The position numbers and the translations under genes are program-made. Positions 37,301 through 60,000 of a DNA stretch of 60,000 nt are shown piece after piece (the stretch's first letter is position 1; every line of letters begins with the position of its first letter). A model generated the notes under the pieces. That model searched no databases and had not been told where the DNA came from. It saw only the letters and a program-made list of their open reading frames with translations. Where the stretch lies: assembly GCF_037042905.1 (NCBI RefSeq), contig NC_087252.1, forward strand, positions 6,574,001 through 6,634,000. The letters run 5' to 3'. This stretch comes from Lytechinus pictus (taxonomy: Eukaryota).

Positions 37301-38492
37301 AACAGCAGCTCAGCTATCTCAGTGGGCTTCATCACAAAGTGCTCCAGGATCATTGAAACCTGACTTACACAGTAACCAAAGTAGAACCAGTCAGGGCTCA
37401 TCATTGATGCCTCCTCATATGGCATCTACCAGCAGTGGAGTGCCCTCACCTTATAACTTCCCTTCATCTGGGTCGAGATCCCGTATGACCCCTTCACCCT
37501 CAGAATCAAAGACATCACTAACAGCTTCATCCATTGCAAGCATAATTGCTAATTTAAAGCAGAATCCGATGGCTGCTATATCTCTGCCATCGGTTTCTTC
37601 TTTTGTCCCATCGTCCAACATGTCACGATCAATGTCCCAATCTGCAGTCCAAAACCAGCCTGTGTACTCGCAAGGGTTGGTGAGACCACATTTGAAGCAA
37701 CCACCAACATCAAAGCCAAGCACCCAGCCATCATCGATCCCTTCACAGCAGCAGCCAACCCCTTTTGGAGGTTCTGGGCTTTCTTTAGCCAGATCATTGT
37801 CCCAGCCATCAACAGTGTTTCCCCGGATGCCTTCCTCTGGACTTATTAGAGATCTTTCAAGAATGCAAAGCCAGCCAGCCGAATCCTCAGTATCTTCCCA
37901 TATTGCTCAGGTTGGAAGGAATGTATTTCCAACTACAGGACGGAATGTTCTTAACCCATCTCCATCTGCACTTTCATCCTTGAAGTCTTCAGCACCTGTG
38001 TCCCGCACAGCAGTTCAATCTTCTGCTAATACTGCTACACTGAAAGCTGTAGCTATGCAACCTACATCAGAAATTCCCCCTGATGTTAGGCCCGGAACAC
38101 AAAACAAGCAGCAACAAAATTCTGGATCCAGAACTACTTCAGATTCCAGATCTTCAACAAGCTCAAGCACCAGCCAAGGAGTCAGATCTACGTCTACAGG
38201 GACATCCAAACAACCTGCAGGAGTTGCGTCTGTATCCTCGTCGAGTGCCGGAACTCCCTCAGGATCAAAACAAGTATCTAAAGCAGACGATGGTAAATCT
38301 TCATCATCCAAGAGTGTAGCTCAAGCAAGCACAGGGCAACCTGCAAGATCAAGACCTTCATTTACACCAGCAGCAGGATCGACAACCACTGTATCTGCAG
38401 CACCCACTCAAAGAGTCATTCCTCCCTTTGAACCAAGGGTTACACGTGGACAATCAAAAGGGAAAGCAACAACCAAGAAAGAGGGATCATAA
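1233..38492 (+). CDS. NFRKB: NFRKB / INO80G orthologue, 17 coding exons in window (5' end outside window), about 1791 aa
   Basis: Manually spliced exons all have AG/GT sites and compatible phases (5376 nt including stop). Peptides match recalled NFRKB motifs: LPQFPED..LF...NF.FGNP (DEUBAD), SFFSL..W..SP...L.SW (winged helix), ERYSQPHKAF, PVKGVF.KET..NKAREH.LL.SDRP.YVTILSLVRDA.ARLPNGEGTRA, VSGALDRLHYEKDPC.KYD..RKLWIYLH. Confidence 0.95.
1734..1929 (+). CDS. NFRKB: NFRKB exon (DEUBAD: CLFERGNFMFGNP...LHRLLKEVLISRQ)
   Basis: ctttcag acceptor, gttggt donor, phase 2-0, within ORF 1609..1965. Confidence 0.92.
3181..3346. mobile_element. Palindromic MITE
   Basis: 26-bp TIR CAGTCAGCAATCTTTGAGCATAGTTT and its reverse complement. 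Confidence 0.8.
3796..3908 (+). CDS. NFRKB: NFRKB exon (ELLEAAIFTSP...VVEKKYR)
   Basis: ttacatag acceptor, gtaagt donor, phase 0-2. Confidence 0.85.
3850..4880 (+). repeat. Three tandem copies of a ~296-bp unit containing the 3' end of an NFRKB exon and its donor site
   Basis: AAGATTGTACAGAAATGACAAAGCTG recurs at 3852, 4310 and 4606. Confidence 0.92.
3929..4086. mobile_element. TTAA-specific MITE (Kolobok-like)
   Basis: TTAA|AGGGAT...ATCCCT|TTAA; the empty site GGAATTAATAGAG is seen in the two neighbouring tandem copies. Confidence 0.85.
5155..5185 (+). CDS. NFRKB: NFRKB 31-nt exon (MLASAKEGDT)
   Basis: long pyrimidine tract + tag, gtaagt donor, phase 2-0 restores frame. Confidence 0.75.
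5907..5943 (+). CDS. NFRKB: NFRKB 37-nt exon (TPDSSDDGDSRS)
   Basis: atatag acceptor, gtcagt donor, phase 0-1; resembles the SSDEE motif of NFRKB. Confidence 0.75.
6662..8286. repeat. Long imperfect inverted repeat (two ~0.8-kb arms, centre ~7490)
   Basis: ATGACGTCACT..GAGAGGCGTGATTGGCTCTC at 6662+ is mirrored at 8248-8286; centre CCACTGAACTGAAAATA-ca-TATTTTCAGTTCAGTGG. Confidence 0.92.
8767..8934 (+). CDS. NFRKB: NFRKB exon (INGFHPIPRD...DGIDTQ)
   Basis: tttaacag acceptor, gtgaga donor, phase 1-1. Confidence 0.75.
9040..9426 (-). mobile_element. tRNA-derived SINE, second family
   Basis: Minus strand TGGCTCAGTCGG (A box), GGTTCGAGTCC (B box), (AAT)n tail. Confidence 0.78.
9640..9900 (+). 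repeat. 15-bp minisatellite (TTGACCTTTGATCTC)n, about 17 degenerate copies
   Basis: Direct reading of tandem units. Confidence 0.9.
9901..10010 (+). CDS. NFRKB: NFRKB exon (KAAIPIKSSSP...EDEHLR)
   Basis: ctctag acceptor, gtaagg donor, phase 1-0. Confidence 0.78.
14355..15448. mobile_element. Non-autonomous hAT-type element inserted in LINE ORF2
   Basis: 8-bp TSD TGATTATA (14347-14354, 15449-15456); imperfect TIRs CAGGGTAGGAATTA / TAATTCCGACTG; minus-strand MDKFL... peptide resembling a transposase N-terminus. Confidence 0.8.
14589..14807. mobile_element. hAT-type MITE nested in the previous element
   Basis: 8-bp TSD CACCAGAG; TIRs CAGTGGCGTACCTA / TAGGTACGCTAGTG. Confidence 0.85.
16462..17187 (-). 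pseudogene. LINE ORF1 (L1-type coiled coil + RRM), frameshifted near 16603
   Basis: IDDLENQSRRCNIIISNV, RIHR, RPRPI motifs; C-terminus continues in another frame to a stop at 16462-16464. Confidence 0.85.
17392..17485 (+). CDS. NFRKB: NFRKB exon (KHPELNTKHITLTGMISRAF...)
   Basis: tttcag acceptor, gtatgt donor, phase 0-1; resembles the HPDL.T..LTL..I..R motif. Confidence 0.85.
17582..17981. mobile_element. PIF/Harbinger-type MITE
   Basis: TAA TSD; TIRs AGCCCTGTGCACAC / GTGTGCACTGGGCT. Confidence 0.8.
18723..18990 (+). CDS. NFRKB: NFRKB exon, Lys/Arg-rich putative NLS plus Ser/Pro-rich segment
   Basis: ctaccag acceptor, gtgagt donor, phase 1-2; KKRKDREKDRKKRKKKK. Confidence 0.87.
21207..22361 (+). 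repeat. 35-bp minisatellite, about 33 copies (ATTAAAGATACAATCAATCACACAATTAAGCTTAC)
   Basis: Near-perfect tandem units, period 35, no spacers. Confidence 0.97.
22448..22634 (+). CDS. NFRKB: NFRKB exon, winged-helix part 1 (SFFSLIRDIF...QPSWAK)
   Basis: ccctcag acceptor, gtaatg donor, phase 2-0. Confidence 0.9.
22642..23728 (+). mobile_element. Helentron-associated (HINE/DINE-1-like) element with ~120-bp internal tandem repeats
   Basis: Sub-terminal inverted repeat TCTCACCTGCAT (22648-22659) / ATGCAGGTGAGA (23694-23705), short 3' hairpin GCCagaGGC, T-rich ends, repeated AAGGTCAAAGGTCA units. Confidence 0.75.
25030..25135 (+). CDS. NFRKB: NFRKB exon, winged-helix part 2 (VVDGAMRFLNG...RQMWQWR)
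   Basis: ttcacag acceptor, gtgagt donor, phase 0-1. Confidence 0.88.
25627..30005. mobile_element. 4.4-kb non-coding TIR element, Sola-like
   Basis: Perfect TIR GGGCCATTCCGGTTAAG / CTTAACCGGAATGGCCC flanked by ATAT on both sides (4-bp TSD); no transposase ORF. Confidence 0.75.
30805..30946 (+). CDS. NFRKB: NFRKB exon (ELPPDSEEELVTLFKQWLDT...)
   Basis: ttgatag acceptor, gtgagt donor, phase 1-2; matches the D.E.EL..LF..WL.T motif. Confidence 0.88.
31821..31884 (+). CDS. NFRKB: NFRKB exon (VAHDTPDMVETKVVFPSFAEQ)
   Basis: ctttccag acceptor, gttagt donor, phase 2-0; ends in F.EQ, continuing into ERERYSQ. Confidence 0.82.
31980..32270 (+). repeat. Degenerate (GAT)n microsatellite
   Basis: Direct reading. 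Confidence 0.9.
32590..32764 (+). CDS. NFRKB: NFRKB exon (ERERYSQPHKAF...YVTILSL)
   Basis: ctacag acceptor, gtaaag donor, phase 0-1; highly conserved peptide. Confidence 0.95.
34053..34280 (+). CDS. NFRKB: NFRKB exon (RDAVARLPNGEGTRA...LWIYLHKDRTIEEF)
   Basis: ccccag acceptor, gtaagg donor, phase 1-1; highly conserved peptide. Confidence 0.95.
34695..34777 (+). CDS. NFRKB: NFRKB exon (RLHMEQGAEAKARKS...PKMA)
   Basis: ttttag acceptor, gtaagt donor, phase 1-0; matches ER.H..Q...AKARK. Confidence 0.9.
35253..38492 (+). CDS. NFRKB: NFRKB terminal exon, 1079-aa S/G/P/Q/T-rich low-complexity tail
   Basis: caacag acceptor in phase 0, uninterrupted ORF 35196..38492 ending TAA. Confidence 0.88.
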   Translation, partial: SGLRDSPINFQASRPGSAMSDTSSENLSIEVCSPKASPGRASSPKTSRKSPAYAKINPVSGFHGGLDLGKGDHPGSSGTVSTSSGKLVSAQAPGQAPFVISPQKINSLQSALKGLHQSPAAGQIGGGDNLMRAQLLAAKVSEGTAPAFGPQGIVMHDVGRSVGSIADILRGAVGSAGDMAPSSSGSGLKEMPKFMKSMSVPCTLPDGKVVMISPELLMPSAKATKKRSRSGSGGRKKGNPLQSSEGALTGSGATDLSMLINSNIITQTSVTVSQGTSKASRKSVTPPTSVTLGTNKLATVSEALAQKRAEAALQSGRQQGRGQSTITLPPGALKGQTVKSILASVGIPLSGASVTVSRIDTPGSSSSAKQASGKSKDSRKSPVFSGVNILSSQPATKGRPSSAPSMSGKKSPITSMHHAIGHQAIGLTTVTKGGQIVVQPVALGIERPGSAASPGIGRQSSSPAAQGLTLKAIPVSIAKQHSLSASQDSRKMQHQSTSEVINISQGDSSGSGKSKVRKRGDGKHISAATAAAALAQAGKMSAGTELKDLASVPLSVLFPGARQGGSQKGGLPVLTPFLPGGQIPLASLTDGKGGVVFQMPHGSNIMSLPVSGVPVNPQRTTGSSISISTTSPSSTVAQSARQLPQHSSSGARTSPALPSNIVSATIRSALAAAQSRANPQQGLTAAQLSQWASSQSAPGSLKPDLHSNQSRTSQGSSLMPPHMASTSSGVPSPYNFPSSGSRSRMTPSPSESKTSLTASSIASIIANLKQNPMAAISLPSVSSFVPSSNMSRSMSQSAVQNQPVYSQGLVRPHLKQPPTSKPSTQPSSIPSQQQPTPFGGSGLSLARSLSQPSTVFPRMPSSGLIRDLSRMQSQPAESSVSSHIAQVGRNVFPTTGRNVLNPSPSALSSLKSSAPVSRTAVQSSANTATLKAVAMQPTSEIPPDVRPGTQNKQQQNSGSRTTSDSRSSTSSSTSQGVRSTSTGTSKQPAGVASVSSSSAGTPSGSKQVSKADDGKSSSSKSVAQASTGQPARSRPSFTPAAGSTTTVSAAPTQRVIPPFEPRVTRGQSKGKATTKKEGS

Positions 38493-38840: not shown

Positions 38841-39030
38841 GAGGTGTCATGACCGAAAGGTCTAAGGCGCCTGACGATACACATGAAAGCCTGGGGTTCA
38901 AGCCCCGTAATGACACCTATGCCCGTGAGCAAAGCATTCAATCAACCCTGCTATTTTATCTTACATTCAAATAAATGGAAATACTATATGCATTCTTGGT
39001 AACTATGTGTGCACTTATTTAAAAAAAAAG
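38841..39030 (+). mobile_element. tRNA-derived SINE in the probable NFRKB 3' UTR; related copy at ~2560-2750 on the minus strand
   Basis: GGTCTAAGGCGCCTGAC, GGTTCAAGCCC, CACCTATGCC motifs, A-run end. Confidence 0.65.
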
Positions 39031-41559: not shown

Positions 41560-44500
41560 TAACAATTATAAAGGTAAGGTAACTCATTCGAATCTGTCGG
41601 GGCCTCAGAAATCTGTTAGACTTGGGCGAAATTCTGTCTAAGAAGATAACGGTCAAGTCCATAAAAAAAGTTGATTCGAAATTAGTTTAGAAAAATCAAA
41701 CAAGCATAACACCGAAAATTTCATCAAAATCGGAAGTAAAATAAAAAAGTTATGACATATTACAGTTTCACTGATATTTCACAAAACAGTTTGTATGCAC
41801 GAATCGGTGAAATGCCAATGAGAAAATCGATGATGTCCCTCACTGTTTCTTTTGTTTTTTTATTGTTTAAATCCCGGGTTTGAATTATACAATATTTCAA
41901 TTTTTACAGATTTGACAGGAAGGACCAACTTGGCTGAAACATGAATGGTAATAGCTCTATGGTAATACCTATCATGTTCAGGGAGGAATAAAACTTTGTG
42001 TTCAAATGACAGTGGGTATAAAATTAGAATATTTCATATGATCAAATACAAAAGAAATTGTGAGTGGGTGACGTCATCGATCCCCTTATTTTCATACCGA
42101 CGAGGATGTCCATATAAATGCATTGTGATTATTTACAGCCGATTTTGATGAAAAATTCAGTTTACGCTTGTTTGATCTTTTTTTTTTTTTTTTCAAATCA
42201 ACTTTTTTGTGTGTGGATGGTCTTGCCCTTTAAGAGTGACTTTAAAATATCTTAACATTCTCATTTGACATACGATTTTAATAAGATTTTCAGCAATCCA
42301 GTTTTTTTATTTTTCTCTAATTCTTCAAATTTAAATATATATTTTTTCAAGTTCATTGAAATGTCATTATTTTTACATTGACCATGTAACCTGTAAATTG
42401 TACTCACAAACTCCAGCCCCCCCCCCCAAAAAAAATATATCTACATTTAAATGATGTGGGGGCCATAACACACAGCTTAACAATGATCGTACAACAATCT
42501 ACGATTGAAATCGTCAAAAATCAAGCTTACGATTAATCGGTAATCTTTATGTCACGGGAACCTGGTTGCAATGTGGAAATTTGTATTTGAGGAATCAACT
42601 GGTTTCCAGCTGACTAAATTTTGAACTAGCTGGTACATGTTGGAAATAATATCAGTTCAACTAGTAAACAAACCAGTTAACTGTCTACCATAGAGAAGTT
42701 CCTCGGGTTATAACATCAAGCTTTCAACCTCAACTCGAAACCAAATTAACACGAAAGCTATAATGAATATTTTATCCCTTTATGGTGTATCTATGGAAAT
42801 TTAACCATTCTCTTGGTAACCAGGCATTAAGGTGTTTCTTATTTACACGGAACGTGCTTACTGTCGTTTTAATCCATCGTGATAAGAAGCTGCTTCTCCT
42901 ATGAGACGAAGTTTATTCTTCAGTTTGTTTTAATAGTATATATCGTCGACAAAGCTAATTAGCTGAGCGCTGTCTGGCTGGTATGCAAATGAGGTCCTCA
43001 TTTGCATACCAGCCAGGATGTGAGGAGACTATGATGTCATCCACTCACTATTTATTTTGTATTTTATTATATAAAATTTGAAACATTCTGATTTTCTCCT
43101 CATTGTCAAGTGATACAACAATTAATTCCTCCCTGGAGATGTGGAATTAGCATTGTTAAATACTATATGGTTCAGTCAAGTTGGTCCTTATTGTCAAATC
43201 TATAAAAATGAAATATTGTATAATTCAAACAATAAAAAAACAAAAGAAATAGTGAGTGATGGACATCATCGACTGACTCACCCAGTTGTGCATATCACTG
43301 TTTTGTGAAAAATAAGCAAAACTTTAAAATGTCATAACTTTCTTATTTTACATCCGATTTTGATGAAATTTTCTGCACTATGCTAGTTTGATTTTCCTCT
43401 ATTTATTCAAGTCAGCATTTTCCCGGGGTGGACTTGACCTTTAAAGATCCGATAAATGCTAATTCCTGAAAGTTTATTTTGGATTATAACAATTATAAAG
43501 GTAAGGTAACTCATTCGAATCTGTCGGGGCCTCAGAAATCTGTTAGACTTGGGCGAAATTCTGTCTAAGAAGATAACGGTCAAGTCCATAAAAAAAGTTG
43601 ATTCGAAATCAGTTTAGAAAAATCAAACAAGCATAACACCGAAAATTTCATCAAAATCGGAAGTAAAATAAAAAAGTTATGACATATTACAGTTTCACTG
43701 ATATTTCACAAAACAGTTTGTATGCACGAATCGGTTAAATGCCAATGAGAAAATCGATGATGTCCCTCACTGTTTCTTTTGTTTTTTATTGTTTGAATCC
43801 CGGGTTTGAATTATACAATATTTCAATTTTTACAGATTTGACAGGAAGGACCAACTTGGCTGAAACATGAATGGTAATAGCTCTATGGTAATACCTATCA
43901 TGTTCAGGGAGGAATAAAACTTTGTGTTCAAATGACAGTGGGTATAAAATTAGAATATTTCATATGATCAAATACAAAAGAAATTGTGAGTGGGTGACGT
44001 CATCGATCCCCTTATTTTCATACCGACGAGAATGTCCATATAAATGCATTGTGATTATTTACAGCCGATTTTGATGAAAAATTCAGTTTACGCTTGTTTG
44101 ATCTTTTTTTTTTTTTTTTTTTATTCAAATCAACTTTTTTTGTGTGTGGATGGTCTTGCCCTTTAAGAGTGACTGTAAAATATCTTAACATTCTCATTTG
44201 ACATACGATTTTTAATAAGATTTTCAGCAATCCAGTTTTTTTATTTTTCTCTAATTCTTCAAATTTAAATATATATTTTTTCAAGTTCATTGAAATGTCA
44301 TTATTTTTACCTTGACCATGTAACCTGTAAATTGTACTCACAAACTCCAGCCCCCCCCAAAAAAAAATATATCTACATTTAAATGATATGGGGGCCATAA
44401 CACACAGCTTAACAATGATCGTACCACAATCTACGATTGAAATCGTCAAAAATCAAGCTTATGATTAATCGGTAATCTTTATGTCACGGGACCCTGGTTG

Positions 44501-47500
44501 CAATGTGGAAATTTGTATTTGAGGAATCAACTGGTTTCCAGCTGACTAAATTTTGAACTAGCTGGTACATGTTGGAAATAATATCAGTTCAACTAGTAAA
44601 CAAACCAGTTAACTGTGTACCATAGAGAAGTTCCTCGGGTTATAACATCAAGCTTTCAAACTCAACCCGAAACCAAATTAACACGGGAGCTATAATGAAT
44701 ATTTTATCCCTTTATGGTGTATCTATGGAAATTTAACCATTCTCTTGGTAACCAGGCATTAAGGTGTTTCTTATTTACACGGAACGTGCTTACTGTCGTT
44801 TTAATCCATCGTGATAAGAAGCTGCTTCTCCTATGAGACAAAGTTTATTCTTCAGTTTGTTTTAATAGTATATATCGTCGACAAAGCTAATTAGCTGAGC
44901 GCTGTCTGGCTGGTATGCAAATGAGGTCCTCATTTGCATACCAGCCAGGATGTGAGGAGACTATGATGTCATCCACTCACTATTTATTTTGTATTTTATT
45001 ATTTAAAATTTGAAACATTCTAATTTTCTCCTCATTGTCAAGTGATACAACAATTAATTCCTCCCTGGAGATGTGGAATTAGCATTGTTAAATACTATAT
45101 GGTTCAGTCAAGTTGGTCCTTATTGTCAAATCTATAAAAATGAAATATTGTATCATTCAAACAATAAAAAAACAAAAGAAATATTGAGTGATGGACATCA
45201 TCGACTGACTCACCCAGTTGTGCATATCACTGTTTTGTGAAAAATAAGCAAAACTTTAAAATGTCATAACTTTCTTATTTTACATCCGATTTTGATGAAA
45301 TTTTCTGCACTATGCTAGTTTGATTTTCCTCTATTTATTCAAGTCAGCATTTTCCCGGGGTGGACTTGACCTTTAAAGATCCGATAAATGCTAATTCCTG
45401 ATAGTTTATTTTGGATTATAACAATTATAAATGTAAGGTAACTCATTCGAATCTGTCGGGGCCTCAGAAATCTGTTAGACTTGGGCGAAATTCTGTCTAA
45501 GAAGATAACGGTCAAGTCCATAAAAAAAGTTGATTCGAAATCAGTTTAGAAAAATCAAACAAGCATAACACCGAAAATTTCATCAAAATCGGAAGTAAAA
45601 TAAAAAAGTTATGACATATTACAGTTTCACTGATATTTCACAAAACAGTTTGTATGCACGAATCGGTGAAATGCCAATGAGAAAATCGATGATGTCCCTC
45701 ACTGTTTCTTTTGTTTTTTATTGTTTGAATCCCGGGTTTGAATTATACAATATTTCAATTTTTACAGATTTGACAGGAAGGACCAACTTGGCTGAAACAT
45801 GAATGGTAATAGCTCTATGGTAATACCTATCATGTTCAGGGAGGAATAAAACTTTGTGTTCAAATGACAGTGGGTATAAAATTAGAATATTTCATATGAT
45901 CAAATACAAAAGAAATTGTGAGTGGGTGACGTCATCGATCCCCTTATTTTCATACCGACGAGAATGTCCATATAAATGCATTGTGATTATTTACAGCCGA
46001 TTTTGAGGAAAAATTCAGTTTACGCTTGTTTGATCTTTTTTTTTTTTTTTTTATTCAAATCAACTTTTTTTGTGTGTGGATGGTCTTGCCCTTTAAGAGT
46101 GACTGTAAAATATCTTAACATTCTCATTTGACATACGATTTTAATAAGATTTTCAGCAATCCAGTTTTTTATTTTTCTCTAATTCTTCAAATTTAAATAT
46201 ATATTTTTTCAAGTTCATTGAAATGTCATTATTTTTACCTTGACCATGTAACCTGTAAATTGTACTCACAAACTCCAGCCCCCCCCAAAAAAAAGATATA
46301 TCTACATTTAAATGATATGGGGGCCATAACACACAGCTTAACAATGATCGTACCACAATCTACGATTGAAATCGTCAAAAATCAAGCTTATGATTAATCG
46401 GTAATCTTTATGTCACGGGACCCTGGTTGCAATGTGGAAATTTGTATTTGAGGAATCAACTGGTTTCCAGCTGACTAAATTTTGAACTAGCTGGTACATG
46501 TTGGAAATAATATCAGTTCAACTAGTAAACAAACCAGTTAACTGTGTACCATAGAGAAGTTCCTCGGGTTATAACATCAAGCTTTCAAACTCAACCCGAA
46601 ACCAAATTAACACGGGAGCTATAATGAATATTTTATCCCTTTATGGTGTATCTATGGAAATTTAACCATTCTCTTGGTAACCAGGCATTAAGGTGTTTCT
46701 TATTTACACGGAACGTGCTTACTGTCGTTTTAATCCATCGTGATAAGAAGCTGCTTCTCCTATGAGACAAAGTTTATTCTTCAGTTTGTTTTAATAGTAT
46801 ATATCGTCGACAAAGCTAATTAGCTGAGCGCTGTCTGGCTGGTATGCAAATGAGGTCCTCATGTGAGGAGACTATGATGTCATCCACTCACTATTTATTT
46901 TGTATTTTATTATTTAAAATTTGAAACATTATAATTTTCTCCTCATTGTCAAGTGATACAACAATTAATTCCTCCCTGGAGATGTGGAATTAGCATTGTT
47001 AAATACTATATGGTTCAGTCAAGTTGGTCCTTATTGTCAAATCTATAAAAATGAAATATTGTATCATTCAAACAATAAAAAAACAAAAGAAATAGTGAGT
47101 GATGGACATCATCGACTGACTCACCCAGTTGTGCATATCACTGTTTTGTGAAAAATAAGCAAAACTTTAAAATGTCATAACTTTCTTATTTTACATCCGA
47201 TTTTGATGAAATTTTCTGCACTATGCTAGTTTGATTTTCCTCTATTTATTCAAGTCAGCATTTTCCCGGGGTGGACTTGACCTTTAAAGATCCGATAAAT
47301 GCTAATTCCTGATAGTTTATTTTGGATTATAACAATTATAAATGTAAGGTAACTCATTCGAATCTGTCGGGGCCTCAGAAATCTGTTAGACTTGGGCGAA
47401 ATTCTGTCTAAGAAGATAACGGTCAAGTCCATAAAAAAAGTTGATTCGAAATCAGTTTAGAAAAATCAAACAAGCATAACACCGAAAATTTCATCAAAAT

Positions 47501-50500
47501 CGGAAGTAAAATAAAAAAGTTATGACATATTACAGTTTCACTGATATTTCACAAAACAGTTTGTATGCACGAATCGGTGAAATGCCAATGAGAAAATCGA
47601 TGATGTCCCTCACTGTTTCTTTTGTTTTTTATTGTTTGAATCCCGGGTTTGAATTATACAATATTTCAATTTTTACAGATTTGACAGGAAGGACCAACTT
47701 GGCTGAAACATGAATGGTAATAGCTCTATGGTAATACCTATCATGTTCAGGGAGGAATAAAACTTTGTGTTCAAATGACAGTGGGTATAAAATTAGAATA
47801 TTTCATATGATCAAATACAAAAGAAATTGTGAGTGGGTGACGTCATCGATCCCCTTATTTTCATACCGACGAGAATGTCCATATAAATGCATTGTGATTA
47901 TTTACAGCCGATTTTGATGAAAAATTCAGTTTACGCTTGTTTGATCTTTTTTTTTTTTTTTATTCAAATCAACTTTTTTTGTGTGTGGATGGTCTTGCCC
48001 TTTAAGAGTGACTGTAAAATATCTTAACATTCTCATTTGACATACGATTTTAATAAGATTTTCAGCAATCCAGTTTTTTATTTTTCTCTAATTCTTCAAA
48101 TTTAAATATATATTTTTTCAAGTTCATTGAAATGTCATTATTTTTACCTTGACCATGTAACCTGTAAACTGTACTCACAAACTCCAGCCCCCCCCCCAAA
48201 AAAGATATATCTACATTTAAATGATATGGGGGCCATAACACACAGCTTAACAATGATCGTACCACAATCTACGATTGAAATCGTCAAAAATCAAGCTTAT
48301 GATTAATCGGTAATCTTTATGTCACGGGACCCTGGTTGCAATGTGGAAATTTGTATTTGAGGAATCAACTGGTTTCCAGCTGACTAAATTTTGAACTAGC
48401 TGGTACATGTTGGAAATAATATCAGTTCAACTAGTAAACAAACCAGTTAACTGTGTACCATAGAGAAGTTCCTCGGGTTATAACATCAAGCTTTCAAACT
48501 CAACCCGAAACCAAATTAACACGGGAGCTATAATGAATATTTTATCCATTTATGGTGTATCTATGGAAATTTAACCATTCTCTTGGTAACCAGGCATTAA
48601 GGTGTTTCTTATTTACACGGAACGTGCTTACTGTCGTTTTAATCCATCGTGATAAGAAGCTGCTTCTCCTATGAGACAAAGTTTATTCTTCAGTTTGTTT
48701 TAATAGTATATATCGTCGACAAAGCTAATTAGCTGAGCGCTGTCTGGCTGGTATGCAAATGAGGTCCTCATGTGAGGAGACTATGATGTCATCCACTCAC
48801 TATTTATTTTGTATTTTATTACTTAAAATTTGAAACATTCTAATTTTCTCCTCATTGTCAAGTGATACAACAATTAATTCCTCCCTGGAGATGTGGAATT
48901 AGCATTGTTAAATACTATATGGTTCAGTCAAGTTGGTCCTTATTGTCAAATCTATAAAAATGAAATATTGTATCATTCAAACAATAAAAAAACAAAAGAA
49001 ATAGTGAGTGATGGACATCATCAACTGACTCACCCAGTTGTGCATATCACTGTTTTGTGAAAAATAAGCAAAACTTTAAAATGTCATAACTTTCTTATTT
49101 TACATCCGATTTTGATGAAATTTTCTGCACTATGCTAGTTTGATTTTCCTCTATTTATTCAAGTCAGCATTTTCCCGGGGTGGACTTGACCTTTAAAGAT
49201 CCGATAAATGCTCATTCCTGATAGTTTATTTTGGATTATAACAATTATAAATGTAAGGTAACTCATTCGAATCTGTCGGGGCCTCAGAAATCTGTTAGAC
49301 TTGGGCGAAATTCTGTCTAAGAAGATAACGGTCAAGTCCATAAAAAAAGTTGATTCGAAATCAGTTTAGAAAAATCAAACAAGCATAACACCGAAAATTT
49401 CATCAAAATCGGAAGTAAAATAAAAAAGTTATGACATATTACAGTTTCACTGATATTTCACAAAACAGTTTGTATGCACGAATCGGTGAAATGCCAATGA
49501 GAAAATCGATGATGTCCCTCACTGTTTCTTTTGTTTTTTATTGTTTGAATCCCGGGTTTGAATTATACAATATTTCAATTTTTACAGATTTGACAGGAAG
49601 GACCAACTTGGCTGAAACATGAATGGTAATAGCTCTATGGTAATACCTATCATGTTCAGGGAGGAATAAAACTTTGTGTTCAAATGACAGTGGGTATAAA
49701 ATTAGAATATTTCATATGATCAAATACAAAAGAAATTGTGAGTGGGTGACGTCATCGATCCCCTTATTTTCATACCGACGAGAATGTCCATATAAATGCA
49801 TTGTGATTATTTACAGCCGATTTTGATGAAAAATTCAGTTTACGCTTGTTTGATCTTTTTTTTTTTTTTTATTCAAATCAACTTTTTTTGTGTGTGGATG
49901 GTCTTGCCCTTTAAGAGTGACTGTAAAATATCTTAACATTCTCATTTGACATACGATTTTAATAAGATTTTCAGCAATCCAGTTTTTTATTTTTCTCTAA
50001 TTCTTCAAATTTAAATATATATTTTTTCAAGTTCATTGAAATGTCATTATTTTTACCTTGACCATGTAACCTGTAAATTGTACTCACAAACTCCAGCCCC
50101 CCCAAAAAAAAATATATATCTACATTTAAATGATATGGGGGCCATAACACACAGCTTAACAATGATCGTACCACAATCTACGATTGAAATCGTCAAAAAT
50201 CAAGCTTACGATTAATCGGTAATCTTTATGTCACGGGACCCTGGTTGCAATGTGGAAATTTGTATTTGAGGAATCAACTGGTTTCCAGCTGACTAAATTT
50301 TGAACTAGCTGGTACATGTTGGAAATAATATCAGTTCAACTAGTAAACAAACCAGTTAACTGTGTACCATAGAGAAGTTCCTCGGGTTATAACATCAAGC
50401 TTTCAAACTCAACCCGAAACCAAATTAACACGGGAGCTATAATGAATATTTTATCCCTTTATGGTGTATCTATGGAAATTTAACCATTCTCTTGGTAACC

Positions 50501-51163
50501 AGGCATTAAGGTGTTTCTTATTTACACGGAACGTGCTTACTGTCGTTTTAATCCATCGTGATAAGAAGCTGCTTCTCCTATGAGACAAAGTTTATTCTTC
50601 AGTTTGTTTTAATAGTATATATCGTCGACAAAGCTAATTAGCTGAGCGCTGTCTGGCTGGTATGCAAATGAGGTCCTCATTTGCATACCAGCCAGGATGT
50701 GAGGAGACTATGATGTCATCCACTCACTATTTATTTTGTATTTTATTATTTAAAATTTGAAACATTATAATTTTCTCCTCATTGTCAAGTGATACAACAA
50801 TTAATTCCTCCCTGGAGATGTGGAATTAGCATTGTTAAATACTATATGGTTCAGTCAAGTTGGTCCTTATTGTCAAATCTATAAAAATGAAATATTGTAT
50901 CATTCAAACAATAAAAAAACAAAAGAAATAGTGAGTGATGGACATCATCGACTGACTCACCCAGTTGTGCATATCACTGTTTTGTGAAAAATAAGCAAAA
51001 CTTTAAAATGTCATAACTTTCTTATTTTACATCCGATTTTGATGAAATTTTCTGCACTATGCTAGTTTGATTTTCCTCTATTTATTCAAGTCAGCATTTT
51101 CCCGGGGTGGACTTGACCTTTAAAGATCCGATAAATGCTAATTCCTGATAGTTTATTTTGGAT
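41560..51163 (+). repeat. Macrosatellite, 5 tandem copies of a ~1.91-1.93-kb unit
   Basis: Unit starts at 41560, 43487, 45419, 47330 and 49239; near-identical short ORFs recur at the same spacing; units contain TTAA-type MITE sequence. Confidence 0.97.
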
Positions 51164-51603: not shown

Positions 51604-54600
51604 GTGAGTACTTTTTTGTATTTCCTATCACTATTTAAAAAAAATCAAACAATTCGAATCGTGTGACTTCATTCATCCTCATCTGAAAAACACTACATAA
51701 TGCAAACTTAATGACGAATTTATAACAAGAACATTGGAACTGTGCGACTTGTGAATTGACAAGTGCACTGCAAGTCAATTTTTTTTGAACGTCAGATAAC
51801 ATGCCTATGCAATTAAAAATTATTTCTAAAAATGAATACAAACGTGCAAAAAATAAAGTTTAGACGGCACAAAACTAACGCGTCACATCAGTGAAATGAG
51901 TATATATATTATAATTTAGAGACACTGCTCAATTAATTCTTTATCGAGAAATAATGGGTTTATCGTTTTAAGCAGAATACATAAAGGCCTATATTTTGCC
52001 CAAGAAAGATACACATGGTGTCCCGTGAAAGCGACTACACTTTTCTTCTTCGCCATGGAAACCCTCGAAAGTTTTAAAGCTTTATTGTTATATTATATCT
52101 GCCTAAAGGTGGAATGTAATATCATATTTTCCAGACGTAATACATACACGAATTATATTTTAGCTGCGCGGCGGAAAATTGGTATTTCGTGTGTGTAACC
52201 TTACAAATTTATTGTAATAAAACTGTTTTCCCCTTTTCAATACAGACCTGTTCTGTAAAATCTTTCCTGTTATAGCAATTTACAGAATGATTTGGTTATT
52301 CTGTCAGTAAAATCTATTTTTTTAATTATTTTTTTTCTTATGTAAAATCTTCTGTTTTTCTTCTTCTAATAGTGCAGATGATGCCAGATGACAAAGAGTT
52401 AAGACTATCAGAACTTTGTTATATAGTAATTACCATGGCAACATGATTCAGCAGACCAATTACAATTATAAGGCCGGTTTCCATAGTAGTTTCCGTAATC
52501 ATGGTAATGGCATAATATAATGAATGCTCTCGAGAGCGCCTGCCGAGCCAGGGTAGCTATAATACTAAAGCCAGGGTAATTCTACGATATTTTAAATATG
52601 ATATCAAACGCTATATTACATAGGTTACTGCCAATAACGATAATATAAATAATGACAGTGTTAATGACAGTGTGTGTGGGCGCGTCGTGGTCTAGTGGTT
52701 ATGACTCTCGCCTTTCAAACGGAGGGTCGTGGGTTCGAATCCTCGCCATGGCGTGAAATTTAGCAAGAAATTTATCCACACTGGTGCACTCGACCCAGGT
52801 GGGGTGAATGGGTACTGGCAGGAAGTAATTCCTCAAAAAGCTGTGCTTACCAGTATCGGTAGACTAGCTTAGCCGGGGTAATATAGGAGCGCCTTGAGCA
52901 CTTAGCCAGGTGGATACGTGCGCTATACAAATCCTATATTATTTATTTTATTTATTAATGATGATAATGATGGTGATAATGTTAATTGATAATCATATAA
53001 TTATGATTATTACAATGGTTCATTCTTGACGCTTTTCCATTTCGTCTTCCAATTTGATGACAGTTCTTGCATCATCGGAGGCAGTGAGGGCATGTTCAGA
53101 TGGGCTTGGCTTAAACTACACATTGCCAAAGTTTAATGAGTGCAAGAAGAGACTTCATCCTAATGGATCCATGATCCAGACCATTCCAAAGCTCATCCGG
53201 CTGTCAACAACCGATGCTGCATGTCCAAGAAGAAGCAACAGATCAGGACTCCCCTTCGGATATGTAATTTGCAAGTTTCCTGGTAATTATCTAAATTAAA
53301 AATCTTTTTTTTTAATCAAAGGTTATGCACTCGCCAGATCAAAGATTTTTTACATTTAAACAATATAGCATTTAAATATATTATAAACATTTGAACAATA
53401 TAAACACGACTATGCTTGACTCATTTTAAATTACATTTACAAGCTATGTGGAGAACGTTACGAAGTTTTTTTTCTCCAGGTTGTTGAGGTTTCGCCCTTT
53501 AGCTGTGAACTATACCAAGCTTCTGGGCCCTTCTGGGTACATTTTTTTTTATTGGAGGTGCTGATGTAAATTTGAAAAGCAAATAAATAAATAAACAAAA
53601 AACGTTTTACTACAAAATGGAAGTCAAATTGTTCTCGAGATATGTGAAATGAAAAAGAAAGAACAAAAAAAGAAGGTTTTTACTTACAGAATGGAGGTCA
53701 TATATTGGTCCCGAGATATTTAAAAAGAAAGAAGAAAGGGGGAAAAGGGTTTCACTAAATGTGAATGTAATTTTGGTTACATTTTTACACATCTTCCATA
53801 ATACCTTGGGGTGCTGCCTATAAAGATTGATACACACAGCACCCCCGCGGATTTTTTTTTTGATGCTTCAGCACCCCCCGCTTTCCAGGCCCATGAACTG
53901 TACATCAATTTTCTATTTTTTTTCTGTGTCTATTTTGAATAATTATCTACTTAACCAAGCATCTCTTTAAAGGAGCTATGATTATGCTTTTGAGCTGTAA
54001 TTTATTCTCTTCCAAATAATGTGATAAAGTGGGAGGAAAATGATAAATGATAACTAAAATCAAACAGAATAAAGATACATCACGTTTTCAGACAAAATCA
54101 ATATTTCCTTACCTTGCTAACAAAGCGTCTCCAATCCCGAATTACTGTTTAATTCAGAAATCATTCGTACCGAAGACAAGCTCCCTCTTTCAACTCACTC
54201 CCTTTAATTAATTACTCTCTATACATATCACAGGCAATAAATATATATGTAAAATTGCATAATAAAGGGTATAAGGCAATTTTACTATATACCTTTTTGT
54301 ATACTTATACTGAGCTTTTACTTCGTAGAAACTCATGTAATTTAGACTTTGACTGCGAATTCGATTTTATTATCTATTGAACCATATGTTTGACTGATGT
54401 GTTATAAATGGTTTATTTCTCATCTCTGAGCTTCCAGAAAAGGTAACCTTTTTTTTGTAAACAAAGCACTATGATTGACAAAACGTTCTCGTGTATGAGC
54501 TTCTCGACGAGACTTCTCTTGCTAGGCTTTTTATTTCAAAATATATAGATAATCGGCGCCTCATAAATTCTGGTTATATTACCATTTCTTTTCATAATCT

Positions 54601-55011: not shown

Positions 55012-58000
55012 TACTACTACTACTATTGCTGCTACTACTGAATTTCATATTATTACTAATAGTGGTAGTAGTACTACTATATACTACTATAAGTTTTCCC
55101 GTCCAATTTCATCAGAGTTGCATTTAAACTAATGAAATGACGTTCAAATTCGAAATATTTTGTCAACCCTCTGCACACATTGTTCATTTTCATTTATCAG
55201 CATTCAACTCCGTTCTATATCATTCCTTTGAATTTTGTAGAAATTCAATTTAGGGAGAAATTCGTTCAAATTAATGGCCCAAAGTTTTCATTTAATTTCG
55301 CTACGACGAAGTGATCGTTTAATTTCGCCTAAAATACCATTTTTAATTTCATTTATCGGCACACATATTTTCACTTTAAACGTCCAAATTCAGATAACAT
55401 GTTTCTGTGTTCATTTTCTTTTTATTACGTTATACAATATTTGTTTCCAAACTTTACCCTATCTTTCTATTTTTTTTCTGATCTTTTCAGTTATAATCAT
55501 TTTATTCCATTAAATTTGATAAAGACGTAATTCACGTAACACTTATAGGATATGGTTGTAAGCGGTTATTCTTTTAGTGATTAATGAGTGGGTGCAGGGG
55601 CAGATCCAGGATTTCCCAAAGGGGGAGGGGCACATTTTCCCGAGGAATTTGACGATAAAAAAAAAAGGTTTTAACCAAAGAATAAGGGTATTTCGTCCAC
55701 GAAAAAAAAACAATTGTACCTCTCAAATGGGGGGAGGGGGGTGGCACTAGCCGGCTGTGTCACCCCCCTGGATCCGCCAGTGAGTTGGTGGATGACCTAT
55801 GCCAATGTTTGGTATTTTTTCTTCATCATCTTCTTCTTTCTTATTTTACATAATTGTAATTTATATCGTTTGGGGGAAGGGATAAAAAACAGGCTTGACC
55901 ACAGTCTATAGTTAAGAAAAGTGGAACAAAAACTAGTTGTTGTTCCGATGACGGTTTATCAGATGGATGATACATTTCAGTAAAATTGTAAACATCCAAT
56001 TTAGAAGTAAACCCATTTCCAAAATTATTCAAAAAAAGTATAAAAAAAAACCAATGAAAAACACTGTCCATATCCCATAAGTGATTGCATATTAATGATT
56101 TTGAATTCCTAAACGTTCGCAAGGAGGGTACCGGTGCAAATTTGAAAACACTTCTTCAGCTATTTTACTTTGATAGTTCTTTACTTGTTTAAATGAGATA
56201 ACCGTTAAATCGTGTGCCAATATAATTAAATTGAATTAAATGTTAGGCTATGCATATGTTGATCTCATTGGTCATTCAAATTAGTTGCAAATTGAATTAT
56301 TACATCATTAAATCGGTTGATATTTTGACGAAATTGGACGGGAAAACCTATACTGCTAATACTATTTCTTCCCCTACCACTGTACTACTACGCCATGAGC
56401 TGCTAGTACTATTAGAACATCTTCTGTCAGTGTTTGGGACCGGGGGTGCTGAGGAAAAATGGTTTTCACGAGAAAATGTTTAGAGGCCATGTTGGTACCA
56501 AGGAATTTGGAAAGGAAAACAAGTTTTTAATACAAAATGGAGGTCATTTTGGGAAAATTTTTCATTTTTACACTTCTTTCCCGCTTCATAGGGCCATGTA
56601 ATAATGATATTATAACAAACTACTACTACTACTTCAACTACTACTACTACTCCTGTTGCTACTACTACTGCTGCGACCAAATCCAAGAATATCAAAATAT
56701 CGAACTATCATATTTGATATATAAAAAAACACTGCTTATTGCTAAAATCACTTGAAATATATGTATGTATGTGTGTATATATATATTCATTAAACAGATA
56801 TCGACATCTCGAATAATTTGATTTAAATACACTGTTGGTCATAAAGGTGTAATAAAATATTTTTGAATAAAAATCGACAGTTTTGTTGGTATTTGAAAGC
56901 CTACGCGTAGACAAAATGGTAATTGAGTGATCACATAATGTTTCCCCATTACACAGGTGACATTATAACATGATAAATTTGGGTTACGTAATAAATTATT
57001 TTGTTGTAGACTATAATAGCCTATGCATATGATATTCTGTCCCTTTCCCTGATTAAGCACTGTGTATAAGAAGGTTGCATTTTTTCGAGTTCCTTGTACC
57101 GTTTGAAATAAAAATCGGTAGAGACGTTCCCTGGACTATACCTGGTCCAACGGCAACAGCAACACGCGAGAGAGTGGAAGCACTGCGACAGGAGGGCTAC
57201 AAGCAGACTGATATTGCAGAAGTCCTAGGGATATCACAGAGTGCAGTCTCTAAGATCCTGAAACGTCAACGTGAGGCGGGGAATGTGCGGCCACGGAAAT
57301 CTCCAGGACGTCCCAGATTAACCACAAGAAGAGATGATCGCCAACTGTTGAATTTCAGCTGCAGAAACCGGAAATTGCCCACGAGCCGTCTTCGTCGCTT
57401 GTGGAGGAGATATCATGGGATCAACGTTTCCCGGTCAACCGTTAATCGCAGATTGCTCCAACATGGTTACCGAACACGACGGTTGACCAAATGTCCACGC
57501 CTGTCTGTTCGCCACAGAGTAGCTCGTCTTCTTTGGGCTAGGGAGCACAGAAGGCTTCATCCACGACATTGGCAACATGTGGTCTTCACGGACGAGAGCC
57601 GGTTCATCCTTGACCGAAAGGATGGGAGACAACGAGTTCGTCGATTAGCCGGGGAAAACCTTCGCAATGAATGTATTTACGAGACGATTCAAGGCAGAGG
57701 CGGCTCAGTGATGATATGGGCCGGCATCCATTATGGAGGGAAAACGCCACTGGTGGTTCCCGACGGAAACGTCAACGCCGCCGCCTACATGGATATCTTG
57801 GAGTTCCACTGTCTTCCATATGCAAGACGAGTGTATGGGCACAATTTCCGACTGCAGGATGACAACGCTAGACCGCACAGGGCCGCTGCAGTAAGGGAAT
57901 TCCTGGAGGCAGAGGGCGTCGTACAGTTGCCATGGCCAGCTTGTTCGCCAGATATGATCCCCATAGAGCATGCATGGGATGCCCTAGGCCGAGCCATCAA

Positions 58001-58764
58001 CGACAGAGAGGTCATTCCTCAAAATCTGCAGGAGTTGGCAGATGTTCTGAGGGAAGAATGGGACGCTATGCCTGTTGACGTCATCAACAAGCTAGTGGAC
58101 AGCATGCCACGACGTCTGCATGCGCTGGTTCGTGCCAGGGGTGGACATACCCGATACTAGTGACTGAGTAAGAACAATGACTCAAGTTTGATGCAAATTT
58201 GTCCATGAAATCACAAAAAAGAAGTCATCTGGAAAACTGAGAGAGATTGAAAATGATCCTTTAATTTACTGTATATTGTCGTCATTGTTGTTCTATGCTC
58301 ATGACATCCATCGCTTAGGACATAAACTTGTTAAATATCACTGTCAAACGTGTGCAAAAGGCAGAATAATAAAGTAAAGTGGTTATCATGCACCATAAAT
58401 GCCATATTCAAATCATGTTGTAATAATTACGCTGTGAAAATTTGGTGAAAAAAGAAAATTCCACCCTTATGACCAACAGTGTAGTTCACCAAATTGGCGA
58501 TTCTTGAAAAAGAGACATTGGCATAGTTTTTACCAGCATGCTATGTCTTTTTCCAAGTTCCTTAGCTTCAATGGTTGATTGAAATTTATTATGATCATAA
58601 ACATTTATAATACCGTTGCGTTTTACATTTGTTTTTATATCTCTTTTAAACATCTGACGAATTATACCGAGTTTTATATATTATATAATTCTCTTCAATT
58701 TTGATATTATTTTCCACGACAGAGTCTCTCGTGTCCGCAGCAAGTGCATACACAACCAATAAAG
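51546..58764 (+). CDS. 5' part of an uncharacterised secreted or membrane EGF-domain protein gene (exons 51546-51603, 53064-53282, 54605-54706, 58723-58764); continues beyond window
   Basis: ATG + hydrophobic leader, three further exons with canonical splice sites, all introns phase 1, no stops, one 6-Cys EGF module. Confidence 0.72.
52678..52956 (+). mobile_element. tRNA-derived SINE
   Basis: A box TGGTCTAGTGG, B box GGTTCGAATCC, body shared with the copy at ~683-1143, AT-rich tail. Confidence 0.82.
53064..53282 (+). CDS. Gene 2 exon 2, 4-Cys extracellular segment (LASSEAVRAC...GYVICKFP)
   Basis: gacag acceptor, gtaatt donor, phase 1-1, ORF 53054..53299, N-glycosylation sequons NYT/NGS/NRS. 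Confidence 0.72.
54605..54706 (+). CDS. Gene 2 exon 3, EGF-like domain DCEMNNCQNGWCEETMEGYECHCSNGFQGKYCNE
   Basis: C-x4-C-x4-C-x8-C-x-C-x8-C with GFxG..C, phase 1-1, gtaaga donor. Confidence 0.85.
54750..55090 (+). repeat. (TAC)n microsatellite
   Basis: Direct reading; explains the poly-Y/T/V ORFs. Confidence 0.95.
55595..55782. mobile_element. hAT-type MITE, same family as 39715
   Basis: TSD AGTGGGTG / AGTTGGTG; same termini. Confidence 0.8.
56830..58481 (+). mobile_element. Tc1-family DNA transposon, full length
   Basis: TIRs CACTGTTGGTCATAA / TTATGACCAACAGTG, TA TSD on both sides, transposase ORF inside. Confidence 0.95.
57138..58160 (+). CDS. Tc1 DD34E transposase; frame open but probable start codon reads ATA
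   Basis: HTH (IAEVLGISQSAVSKI), GRPR, VFTDESRF, QDDNARPH, SPDMIPIEHAW with 34 residues between D and E, GGHTRY end. Confidence 0.9.
   Translation: MPGPTATATRERVEALRQEGYKQTDIAEVLGISQSAVSKILKRQREAGNVRPRKSPGRPRLTTRRDDRQLLNFSCRNRKLPTSRLRRLWRRYHGINVSRSTVNRRLLQHGYRTRRLTKCPRLSVRHRVARLLWAREHRRLHPRHWQHVVFTDESRFILDRKDGRQRVRRLAGENLRNECIYETIQGRGGSVMIWAGIHYGGKTPLVVPDGNVNAAAYMDILEFHCLPYARRVYGHNFRLQDDNARPHRAAAVREFLEAEGVVQLPWPACSPDMIPIEHAWDALGRAINDREVIPQNLQELADVLREEWDAMPVDVINKLVDSMPRRLHALVRARGGHTRY
58723..58764 (+). CDS. Gene 2 probable exon 4 (SLVSAASAYTTNK)
   Basis: ttttccacgacag acceptor, gtaaaa donor, phase 1-1. Confidence 0.55.
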
Positions 58765-59164
58765 GTAAAACATTAACATTTTTCACCTAAAATATGAAGG
58801 GGTTAGGTTTTAAAAAATTGAAAAATAAAAAGACCCGCATAATTTTGTTTTCATAAAATGTGACTTTATGTTCCAATGATGTGGTTTTATGTTTGTTAAG
58901 TTTATTACATTTAGTAACACTGTAAAATAGATGAATGAAAAAAAAACATTTTCTCTGGATGGCTAAAAGTTGACTTAACAATTTTTGTATATAAATTCTT
59001 CAAACACACACCCACTCACCCCCACGCACACACACACATATATATGTATATATATATGTGTGTGTGTGTGTGTGTATTTAAGTGACAGTAAATGATATCA
59101 ATATTAAATCTTATTAGACCTTAACCTCACCTTCAATTTTTTTTTATTTGTATTATTCATATTT

Positions 59165-59355
59165 GGGCGTTGTGGCTTACGCCTGCCTGTAATCCAAGCT
59201 ATGTTGGGAAAATACAATTGATGCAGAGGTTCAAAGTTCGAGCCATGGTCACGTTTTTCTTTTTATATAATGATGTAAAAGCTCAGTCCAATACCTAAAT
59301 AATCAAATCTTATTGATACACGTCTTAAAAAAAACCTCGTTTACACAGACGCATA
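59165..59355 (+). mobile_element. Putative SINE with a 7SL/Alu-like 5' head
   Basis: GGGCGTTGTGGCTTACGCCT-GCCT-GTAATCCAAGCTA followed by B-box-like GTTCGAG; 3' boundary uncertain. Confidence 0.55.
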
Positions 59356-60000
59356 CTCTTTTATTGACAAGAAATTCAACACTTTTTTTTGCATCAACTA
59401 ATATGCCTAACAAAATTTTAAATATCTTCATAAAATGCGAATCCTCCACTGAAGGACAAAGGGCGATTTTAAGTTCAGTGTTGACCTTTTTTTGTTGGTG
59501 TTAGGTCAATTTTTACAAGAGTATACCATCAAACATAAACTGAAGATGGTCCTGAAAAGTCACTCACTAGTTGTTGAGATGTCAATAATGTGATCTGGAT
59601 CAGTTTTACAAACTCAAAATAGGTTTTGGAGCTAGGGGAAGCAATCCAAATTGTGCTTCCAACACCAACGCCAGCACCGAACTTGAAATCACTCATCAAC
59701 TAGGTTGCAAACATGTTAGATTAGTACCTTTTCATGATTTGTTTTAAAATGTATAGTGCTGTAATACACATACACAGTTTGCAACCAATGAACATCCGTC
59801 ATTTCCATACTAAGGCTTACAAAAAACTTTTCCACCCCGAGACACAACCTCACACACACCCACACCTTTCTCTCACACACTCACCCTCACACACATACCC
59901 ACACACGTGCGCACTCCCTTTAGCTTTCATTTACCCACGTCCAAACTCCTAACCCCACAACTCAATTCACACACTTCACCAACAATACACACGCACATAC

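What the first reader, a model, noticed from the sequence alone, without database searches (positions are those of the whole stretch)
59165..59355. 7SL/Alu-like head on a short element in an apparently invertebrate genome
Seen: GGGCGTTGTGGCTTACGCCT(GCCT)GTAATCCAAGCTA. Ignoring a 4-nt duplication, it matches 27 of 31 positions of the recalled Alu 5' end (GGGCGCGGTGGCTCACGCCTGTAATCCCAGC). A B-box-like GTTCGAG follows, then non-Alu sequence and A/CA-rich bases. Known: 7SL-derived SINEs are rare, described from primates, rodents, tree shrews and hagfish. Inference: this may be an independently evolved 7SL-headed chimeric SINE. It is diverged and embedded in host-like DNA, so human contamination is unlikely.
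Basis: partly seen in the sequence, partly recalled or inferred. Interest (0 to 1): 0.7.

Follow-up and report, generated by a model that had tools for sequence, protein, structure and literature searches.

The report
Sea urchin SINE with 7SL head
This is one worn-out copy of a repeated jumping element in a sea urchin whose first 45 bases look copied from signal-recognition-particle (7SL) RNA, the same source as human Alu, a head type so far described in print only from a few mammals and a hagfish.

Summary
Observation confirmed. The window is Lytechinus pictus DNA (NFRKB 100% identical). At 59165-59209, Metazoa_SRP positions 1-44 are Rfam's best match (E 0.033 over 4,227 families, far below gathering); a tRNA-SINE head control hits tRNA only. 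Four public runs laid at 80% likeness pile up on 59163-59344 and leave the flanks almost bare: a multi-copy family. Their majority letters restore a tRNA-type B box and a Deu/Nin-like core, lack the GCCT duplication and end in (AC)n. So the family reads: 7SL 5' domain, tRNA-like 3' half, Deu/Nin core, tail. This copy is decayed (19 listed majority differences in 148 bases, two internal T5 runs, no target-site duplication) and probably dead. Unlike Alu and hagfish SINE1-1_EBu, no 3' half of the Alu domain was found, and the 7SL part is under SINEBase's 60-nt rule. No genome was held: host 7SL gene, copy number and LINE partner are untested here. Nine literature searches listed no echinoderm case; Repbase/Dfam unchecked. 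This scan already reported what appears to be this family elsewhere in this genome (11 notes listed).

The parts
59165..59209 (+). 7SL (SRP RNA) Alu 5'-domain-like head: first hairpin with UGGC loop, UGUAAUCC turn, second hairpin with GCUA loop; holds the presumed A box; GCCT duplicated at 59181-59188 in this copy
   Evidence: Rfam Metazoa_SRP model 1-44, E 0.033; both hairpins in the minimum-energy fold but z-score -0.04; 20 contigs of run X1 continue 5' of 59185 with head sequence and without the duplication (table 7)
59210..59254 (+). tRNA-like 3' half (variable loop and T arm) with B box at 59235-59245, two mismatches to the B-box consensus in this copy
   Evidence: GTTCGAG at 59236-59242; majority letters G at 59235 and C at 59245 give a full GGTTCGANNCC (consensus recalled); no Rfam tRNA or SRP match for 59205-59258 in this copy, so tRNA origin is inference
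59248..59290 (+). Decayed Deu/Nin-like central core
   Evidence: Majority letters and the X10 loose end behind 59259 share GTCACG, TCTTTCGGATG and GGTCC by eye with BivaMD-SINE1 in the supplement of PMC4824008, and TTCGGATG with hagfish SINE2-7B_EBu; the copy itself is too decayed to align
59254..59264 (+). Two T5 runs (59254-59258, 59260-59264) that would stop RNA polymerase III; not in the family majority
   Evidence: majority C at 59255, and 5 of 10 bridging RNA reads leave out 4 bases at 59261 and 1 at 59266
59291..59342 (+). Shared 3' region, presumed LINE-recognition tail; partner not found
   Evidence: high depth to about 59344 in 4 of 4 runs; no match to LINE-like DNA in the window
59343..59356 (+). 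Degenerate (AC)n tail
   Evidence: 367 RNA reads (X21) and 15 contigs (X2) run on behind 59332 into an AC repeat (table 7)

Best explanation
A decayed copy of a multi-copy sea-urchin SINE of about 180 bases. The family most likely arose when the first ~45 bases of 7SL RNA replaced the front half of the tRNA head of a Deu/Nin-type SINE (inferred; template switch or recombination). RNA polymerase III would transcribe it from a hybrid promoter, A box from 7SL and B box from the tRNA remnant (inferred); an unidentified LINE would copy the RNA into new sites through the shared 3' region and (AC)n tail (inferred from how SINEs work). Shown here: SRP-like head, repeat boundaries, shared body, tail. 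This copy is probably inactive: damaged B box and two internal T5 runs. Whether the head also binds SRP9/14, as in Alu, is open; I put that at about 1 in 3.
For: Head; control (the ordinary SINE head at 684-734 gives tRNA, no SRP); the element's head gives no tRNA match. The X1 loose end plus the window agree by eye with the hagfish SINE1-1_EBu start printed over the GTGGCGTGCGCCTGTAATCC motif. Family: 4 of 4 runs cover 59163-59344 (X10 has a gap at 59267-59292); 59085-59110, 59345-59448 and 59709-59840 have zero depth in all 4. Host. Core. Precedent for head swapping: 5S onto tRNA heads in DeuSINEs (passage in PMC4758252) and 7SL onto a tRNA SINE in hagfish (PMC7245038).
Against: The SRP score (13.2 bits) is far below gathering (70) and seen only in narrow, truncated scans. 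The host 7SL gene was not seen. The head folds no better than shuffles (z -0.04 and -0.24; whole element z 0.54), and the majority G at 59205 removes a pair that this copy has in the second hairpin. No target-site duplication (best 8-nt T run, 71 of 500 shuffles as good). The tRNA-like segment has no Rfam support in this copy. The runs laid do not cover the flanks, so they speak for other copies, in coded organisms A and B, not for this locus. Depth at the first 25 bases is low (a human-likeness filter and the duplication may both cut it). The RNA reads lie about equally on both strands and 80% run on into unlike sequence, which fits copies inside longer transcripts, not a Pol III RNA.
Confidence: 0.8

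Rival explanations
1. An Alu-like monomer: the whole first ~90 bases come from 7SL RNA (5' part plus 3' part after a central deletion), the B box having evolved as in Alu, with no tRNA contribution.
For: 59226-59254 has a loose look of the B-box region of the left Alu monomer (recalled, not tested); all published 7SL SINEs are built this way (PMC13023118 passages).
Against: Extending the Rfam scan from 51 to 101 bases lowers the SRP score; 59205-59258 gives no SRP match; 59210-59222 is AT-rich where the SRP consensus is G-rich; the bases after the B box match the Deu/Nin core.
Confidence: 0.08
2. An ordinary tRNA-headed Deu SINE whose 5' half drifted into a chance likeness to 7SL.
For: Low Rfam score; the A-box motif TGGC is common to tRNA and 7SL; sea urchins have tRNA-headed Deu SINEs (SINE2-3_SP; PMC4824008 passage), and one such element seems to lie at 9120-9430.
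Against: 32 of 38 model positions identical, with both loops and the UGUAAUCC turn in register; no tRNA match for the head, whereas the control head gives one.
Confidence: 0.07
3. A one-off chimera: a 7SL pseudogene fragment that happens to sit in front of a headless SINE at this locus only.
For: No second copy in the 60-kb window; no target-site duplication.
Against: Other copies carry the same head joined to the same body: 20 contigs in X1 before 59185, 3 contigs in X10 before 59216, and 27-49 contigs per DNA run with majority letters at 59205-59212, in runs that do not hold this locus's flanks.
Confidence: 0.04
4. Human Alu contamination in the assembly or the reads.
For: The head resembles Alu.
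Against: The window carries the L. pictus NFRKB gene; the body is not Alu; the same non-Alu body recurs in four runs of two coded organisms from which human-like records are filtered out.
Confidence: 0.01

Closest known systems
SINE1-1_EBu of the hagfish Eptatretus burgeri (Kojima 2020, PMC7245038; parts 1-3 of 4 of the text read, supplement passages seen)
   Same: 7SL-derived 5' end grafted onto an older tRNA-type SINE; simple-repeat tail instead of poly(A); independent of Alu.
   Different: The hagfish element keeps 7SL 1-96 plus the 3' end (whole Alu domain, 7SL B box) and a bipartite RTE tail with (AAC)n. Here only ~45 bases are 7SL-like, the B box looks tRNA-type, a Deu/Nin-like core follows, the tail is (AC)n and the partner is unknown.
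Alu / FLAM / B1 / Tu (Euarchontoglires) and Urop (shrew mole; PMC13023118, passages)
   Same: 5' hairpins and turn of the Alu domain at the very start.
   Different: Those keep 5' and 3' parts of 7SL around a ~183-nt deletion, end in poly(A) and use L1. The leftmost unit of tree-shrew Tu is said to have a dual 7SL and tRNA origin, the nearest architectural echo.
DeuSINEs / Nin-DC SINEs: SINE2-3_SP of sea urchin, BivaMD-SINE1, AmnSINE1, SINE3-1 (PMC4824008, PMC5804259, PMC4758252; passages, one supplement)
   Same: Central core motif; sea-urchin occurrence; known habit of taking a new Pol III head (5S rRNA fused in front of a tRNA head).
   Different: No 7SL head is mentioned for any of them in the passages read (7SL occurs 0 times in PMC4824008 and PMC5804259); the core here is only about 40 bases.
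P7SL_MD and P7SL_Cpo (full-length 7SL retrocopies; PMC7245038)
   Same: Multi-copy 7SL-derived sequence.
   Different: Those are full-length 7SL with poly(A); this one has a foreign body and tail, so it is not a plain retropseudogene.

Membership tests
SINE (SINEBase definition, PMC3531059) | short (<1 kb), interspersed, non-tandem repeat | tested here: met
   about 190 bases with sharp depth boundaries; single in the window
SINE (SINEBase definition, PMC3531059) | [quoted passage not shown] | tested here: inconclusive
   up to 58 contigs at one place and summed depths up to 157,990 against pieces of depth 47-362 in X1; the tool states that depth is no copy number, and no genome was held
SINE (SINEBase definition, PMC3531059) | at least 60% identity to tRNA, 5S or 7SL RNA over at least 60 nt | tested here: not met
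   7SL similarity is 84% but over only 38-44 model positions; no gain beyond; the tRNA-like segment is about 45 bases with no Rfam match. The two together span about 90 bases
SINE | target-site duplication | tested here: not met
   none above shuffles at this decayed copy; young copies not available
SINE | transcription by RNA polymerase III | not testable with these tools
   one RNA-seq run shows both strands equally and reads running on into unlike sequence; uninformative for a short Pol III RNA
SINE | 3' end shared with a partner LINE or a simple-repeat tail | tested here: inconclusive
   (AC)n tail shown; no LINE match within the window; genome not searchable
SINE1 (7SL-derived) | 5' end derived from 7SL RNA | tested here: met
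   Rfam Metazoa_SRP best match, model 1-44, E 0.033; control; host 7SL gene not compared
SINE1 (7SL-derived) | both 5' and 3' parts of the Alu domain kept around a central deletion (7SL 1-63, 76-83, 267-299 in mammals) | tested here: not met
   similarity ends near 59209-59212; no SRP match downstream; tested on this decayed copy only
SINE1 (7SL-derived) | B box from 7SL positions 76-86 | tested here: inconclusive
   majority letters give a tRNA-type B box in a T-arm-like context (by eye); Alu's B box has the same consensus (recalled), so origin is not settled
SINE1 (7SL-derived) | Alu-domain fold kept, SRP9/14 binding | tested here: inconclusive
   both hairpins and complementary loops (UGGC, GCUA) present, but folding no better than shuffles; binding not testable
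DeuSINE / Nin-DC | Deu/Nin central domain (70-120 bp in invertebrates) | tested here: inconclusive
   three short motifs shared by eye over about 40 bases; no alignment of a family consensus was run; the copy itself aligns poorly

The most novel reading that the evidence does not exclude
An invertebrate lineage independently reinvented Alu's trick in minimal form: the 45-base Alu 5' domain alone, without the 3' strand kept by every published 7SL SINE, both supplies the A box and binds SRP9/14, parking the RNA on ribosomes where a non-L1, sequence-specific LINE reverse transcriptase picks it up; this gave the chimera its edge over its tRNA-headed parent.
Probability: 0.3. Interest if true: 0.78.

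Novelty: new variant of a known kind. Interest (0 to 1): 0.6.

Why it matters
Papers up to February 2026 state that 7SL-derived SINEs are known only from supraprimates, a shrew mole and hagfish (PMC13023118, passages). A sea-urchin family would be a further independent origin, outside vertebrates, with a different design (5' domain only, tRNA-type B box, Deu/Nin core). It bears on an open question, whether the Alu domain is kept for SRP9/14-mediated ribosome docking or just as a promoter, because the two can be separated here, in a laboratory species. It also warns that Alu-like hits in sea urchin assemblies need not be human contamination. This particular copy is a dead, decayed member and a poor representative.

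Tried and rejected
No whole genome is held for this window, so no copy count, consensus, host 7SL gene or LINE search. Collection scans for other copies: 3 metagenome, 2 prokaryote-genome and 1 viral locus matched short patterns; for L001-L005 BLAST shows only the 19-base seed and short low-complexity hits and L006 shows no element context by eye: chance. Searches found nothing. Window self-search by BLAST and nhmmer: no second copy. ARAGORN: 0 genes. Four ordinary tRNA-headed SINEs in the window share nothing with this copy at E 0.01. Weak tail matches at 16283-16326 and 56018-56052 are A-rich noise. The L1-like relic at 10880-14204 does not share the tail. Run search: no holder on record as RNA and none above a 0.13 share; not used as evidence on expression. 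The 6 molecules beginning at 59185 coincide with the private duplication and are not taken as a start site. Helenus/Ajax TRIMs (PMC10886601, part 1 of 6 read) carry tRNA or 5S pieces in LTRs; no long direct repeats here. Literature: 9 searches listed no echinoderm or other invertebrate 7SL SINE; for four of them only the top of the list was shown (30 of 530, 25 of 423, 30 of 58, 20 of 28), as titles and abstract starts; six short motif terms hit 0 papers.

Full report
Observation. The quoted head lies at 59165-59201 on the + strand, with GCCT duplicated at 59181-59188, GTTCGAG at 59236-59242, an A8 run at 59327-59334 and an AC-rich stretch at 59343-59356. The head is 56% G+C in flanks of 20-26%.

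Host and context. The long exon at 35136-38492 is 100% identical to a protein labelled NFRKB-like of Lytechinus pictus, and 74% to Strongylocentrotus purpuratus (4 hits in all). The NFRKB coding sequence ends at 38489, so the element lies about 20.7 kb downstream, between a Tc1-type transposase frame (57057-58160) with a microsatellite and a MITE-like repeat (59450-59708). No whole genome was held.

Is the head 7SL-like? Rfam at gathering score finds only a tRNA-like SINE head at 686-758 in the window, and an 801-base scan lists 34 weak matches, none SRP. Scanned narrowly, so that truncated matches count, Metazoa_SRP has the best E-value: model 1-44 on 59162-59212, 13.2 bits, E 0.033 over 4,227 families. 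By eye 32 of 38 model positions (4-41) are identical, and both hairpins, their complementary loops and the UGUAAUCC turn fall in register. A 101-base scan scores lower (12.5 bits), so similarity stops near 59209-59212; 59205-59258 gives neither SRP nor tRNA. The same 51-base test on the ordinary SINE head at 684-734 returns tRNA and no SRP. The stretch was chosen after the fact and the score is far below gathering (70), so this is good but not final evidence; the host 7SL gene is the missing test.

Is it a family? The run search listed 24 runs, 20 with a small share of words (at most 0.13), from coded organisms A and B. I laid 4 of the 24 at 80% likeness on 59085-59840. Depth is zero in all 4 at 59085-59110, 59345-59448 and 59709-59840, near zero at 59111-59162 (X2 only, 4-13), and high at 59163-59344 (up to 106,471 in X2 and 157,990 in X1; X10 has a gap at 59267-59292) and at the neighbouring repeat. 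The tool warns that summed depth is no copy number; the plainer count is up to 58 different contigs carrying one majority letter at one place. Because the flanks are bare, these runs report other copies, not this locus. The three organism-A runs agree on 19 majority substitutions and one inserted A between 59185 and 59332, and X10 shares them where it has depth, except at 59233 (6 further rows over the whole stretch were not shown). Twenty X1 contigs run on 5' of 59185 with head sequence and no GCCT duplication; three X10 contigs show the second loop joined to the middle part; four X10 contigs run on behind 59259 with letters that match the majority letters called from the 3' half; 367 RNA reads and 15 X2 contigs end in an AC repeat behind 59332.

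Anatomy of the family. After the 45-base head comes a segment that reads like the variable loop and T arm of a tRNA; the majority letters at 59235 and 59245 complete a B box (consensus recalled). This tRNA origin is inference: the decayed copy has no Rfam match, and an Alu-like origin of this segment is kept as a rival. Next, the majority letters share GTCACG, TCTTTCGGATG and GGTCC with BivaMD-SINE1 in the supplement of PMC4824008, a SINE that has Meta then Deu domains, and TTCGGATG with hagfish SINE2-7B_EBu, a close relative of the Deu-bearing SINE2-7_EBu. This comparison is by eye; I ran no alignment of a consensus. Sea urchins are known hosts of Deu/Nin SINEs (SINE2-3_SP). The last 50 bases match nothing LINE-like in the window.

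This copy. It differs from the majority at 19 listed places in 148 bases, has two mismatches in the B box, a private duplication in the first hairpin region and two T5 runs at 59254-59264 that would end Pol III transcription (established knowledge). No target-site duplication stands out (71, 52 and 269 of 500 shuffles do as well at 0, 1 and 2 mismatches). It is most likely an old, inactive insertion.

How it most likely works. Shown: SRP-like head, repeat boundaries, shared body, (AC)n tail. Inferred: birth by replacement of the front half of a tRNA head with 7SL 1-45, as 5S did in some DeuSINEs and 7SL did in hagfish; Pol III transcription from a 7SL A box (7SL 6-15) and a tRNA B box; target-primed reverse transcription by a LINE that recognises the 3' region. 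Open: SRP9/14 binding. For it: the kept piece is the 5' domain with both loops, which I recall as the SRP9/14 binding site, and Alu needs this binding. Against it: no folding advantage over shuffles, a majority G at 59205 that weakens the second hairpin, and no 3' strand of the Alu domain. The one raw RNA run shows both strands equally and 80% of reads running on into unlike sequence, which fits passive presence in longer transcripts.

Comparison with what is known. It works like a SINE1 in taking its 5' end from 7SL, but two defining features were tested and not met on this copy: the 3' part of the Alu domain, and SINEBase's 60-nt rule. I therefore file it as a new variant, a 7SL/tRNA/Deu chimera, not as a plain member of SINE1. 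PMC13023118 (2026; passages) and PMC7245038 (2020; parts 1-3 of 4) name only supraprimates, shrew mole and hagfish, with marsupial and guinea-pig retrocopies as doubtful cases. Nine searches listed no invertebrate case, with the limits given under Tried and rejected; Repbase and Dfam may hold the family.

Earlier notes of this scan. A look-up by sequence found nothing, but look-ups by words and place listed 11 notes (3 of 3; 8 of 42) on what is described as the same kind of element elsewhere in this genome. They add claims of several hundred to about 1,500 copies, a match to the host's own 7SL gene, and an empty site. I could not test these, did not compare their sequences with mine, and do not count them as evidence. 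My 7SL, family and Deu/Nin readings were reached before those look-ups.

Verdict. Real feature; first reading supported; confidence 0.8 for a 7SL-headed chimeric SINE family; new variant of a known kind; interest 0.6.

Noticed in passing
window 305-558 and 59450-59708: MITE-like repeat: two copies 81% alike over 253 bases; the first has 25-nt terminal inverted repeats and inner inverted TTGGTGTTGG arms; deeper than the SINE in all 4 runs laid.
   Followed up: partly
window 9120-9430 (- strand): tRNA-headed SINE-like element with a perfect B box and a Deu/Nin-like motif near 9245-9270; possibly the ordinary DeuSINE of this genome; no significant match to the decayed 7SL-headed copy.
   Followed up: partly
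window 686-1130, 52681-52950, 38845-38990: Ordinary tRNA-headed SINEs; the first two are 75% alike over 126 bases, and the first carries an inserted palindromic piece of about 160 bases.
   Followed up: partly
window 41560-51163: Five head-to-tail copies of a 1.9-kb unit, about 98% alike, each with a 430-base inner inverted repeat (73%); young tandem array of a MITE-like element or an assembly expansion.
   Followed up: no
window 57057-58160: Open 367-aa Tc1/mariner-type transposase frame (DDE_3, HTH_Tnp_Tc3_2).
   Followed up: partly
window 10880-14204 and 16603-17220 (- strand): Decayed L1/Tx1-like retrotransposon (RVT_1, zf-RVT, endonuclease) and a coiled-coil frame resembling an ORF1, inside NFRKB introns.
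   Followed up: partly
window 3850-4880: A 296-base tandem duplication that repeats the last 20 codons of an NFRKB exon twice in the following intron.
   Followed up: no
window 21207-22370: 35-base minisatellite, about 97% alike, directly upstream of the NFRKB winged-helix exon.
   Followed up: no
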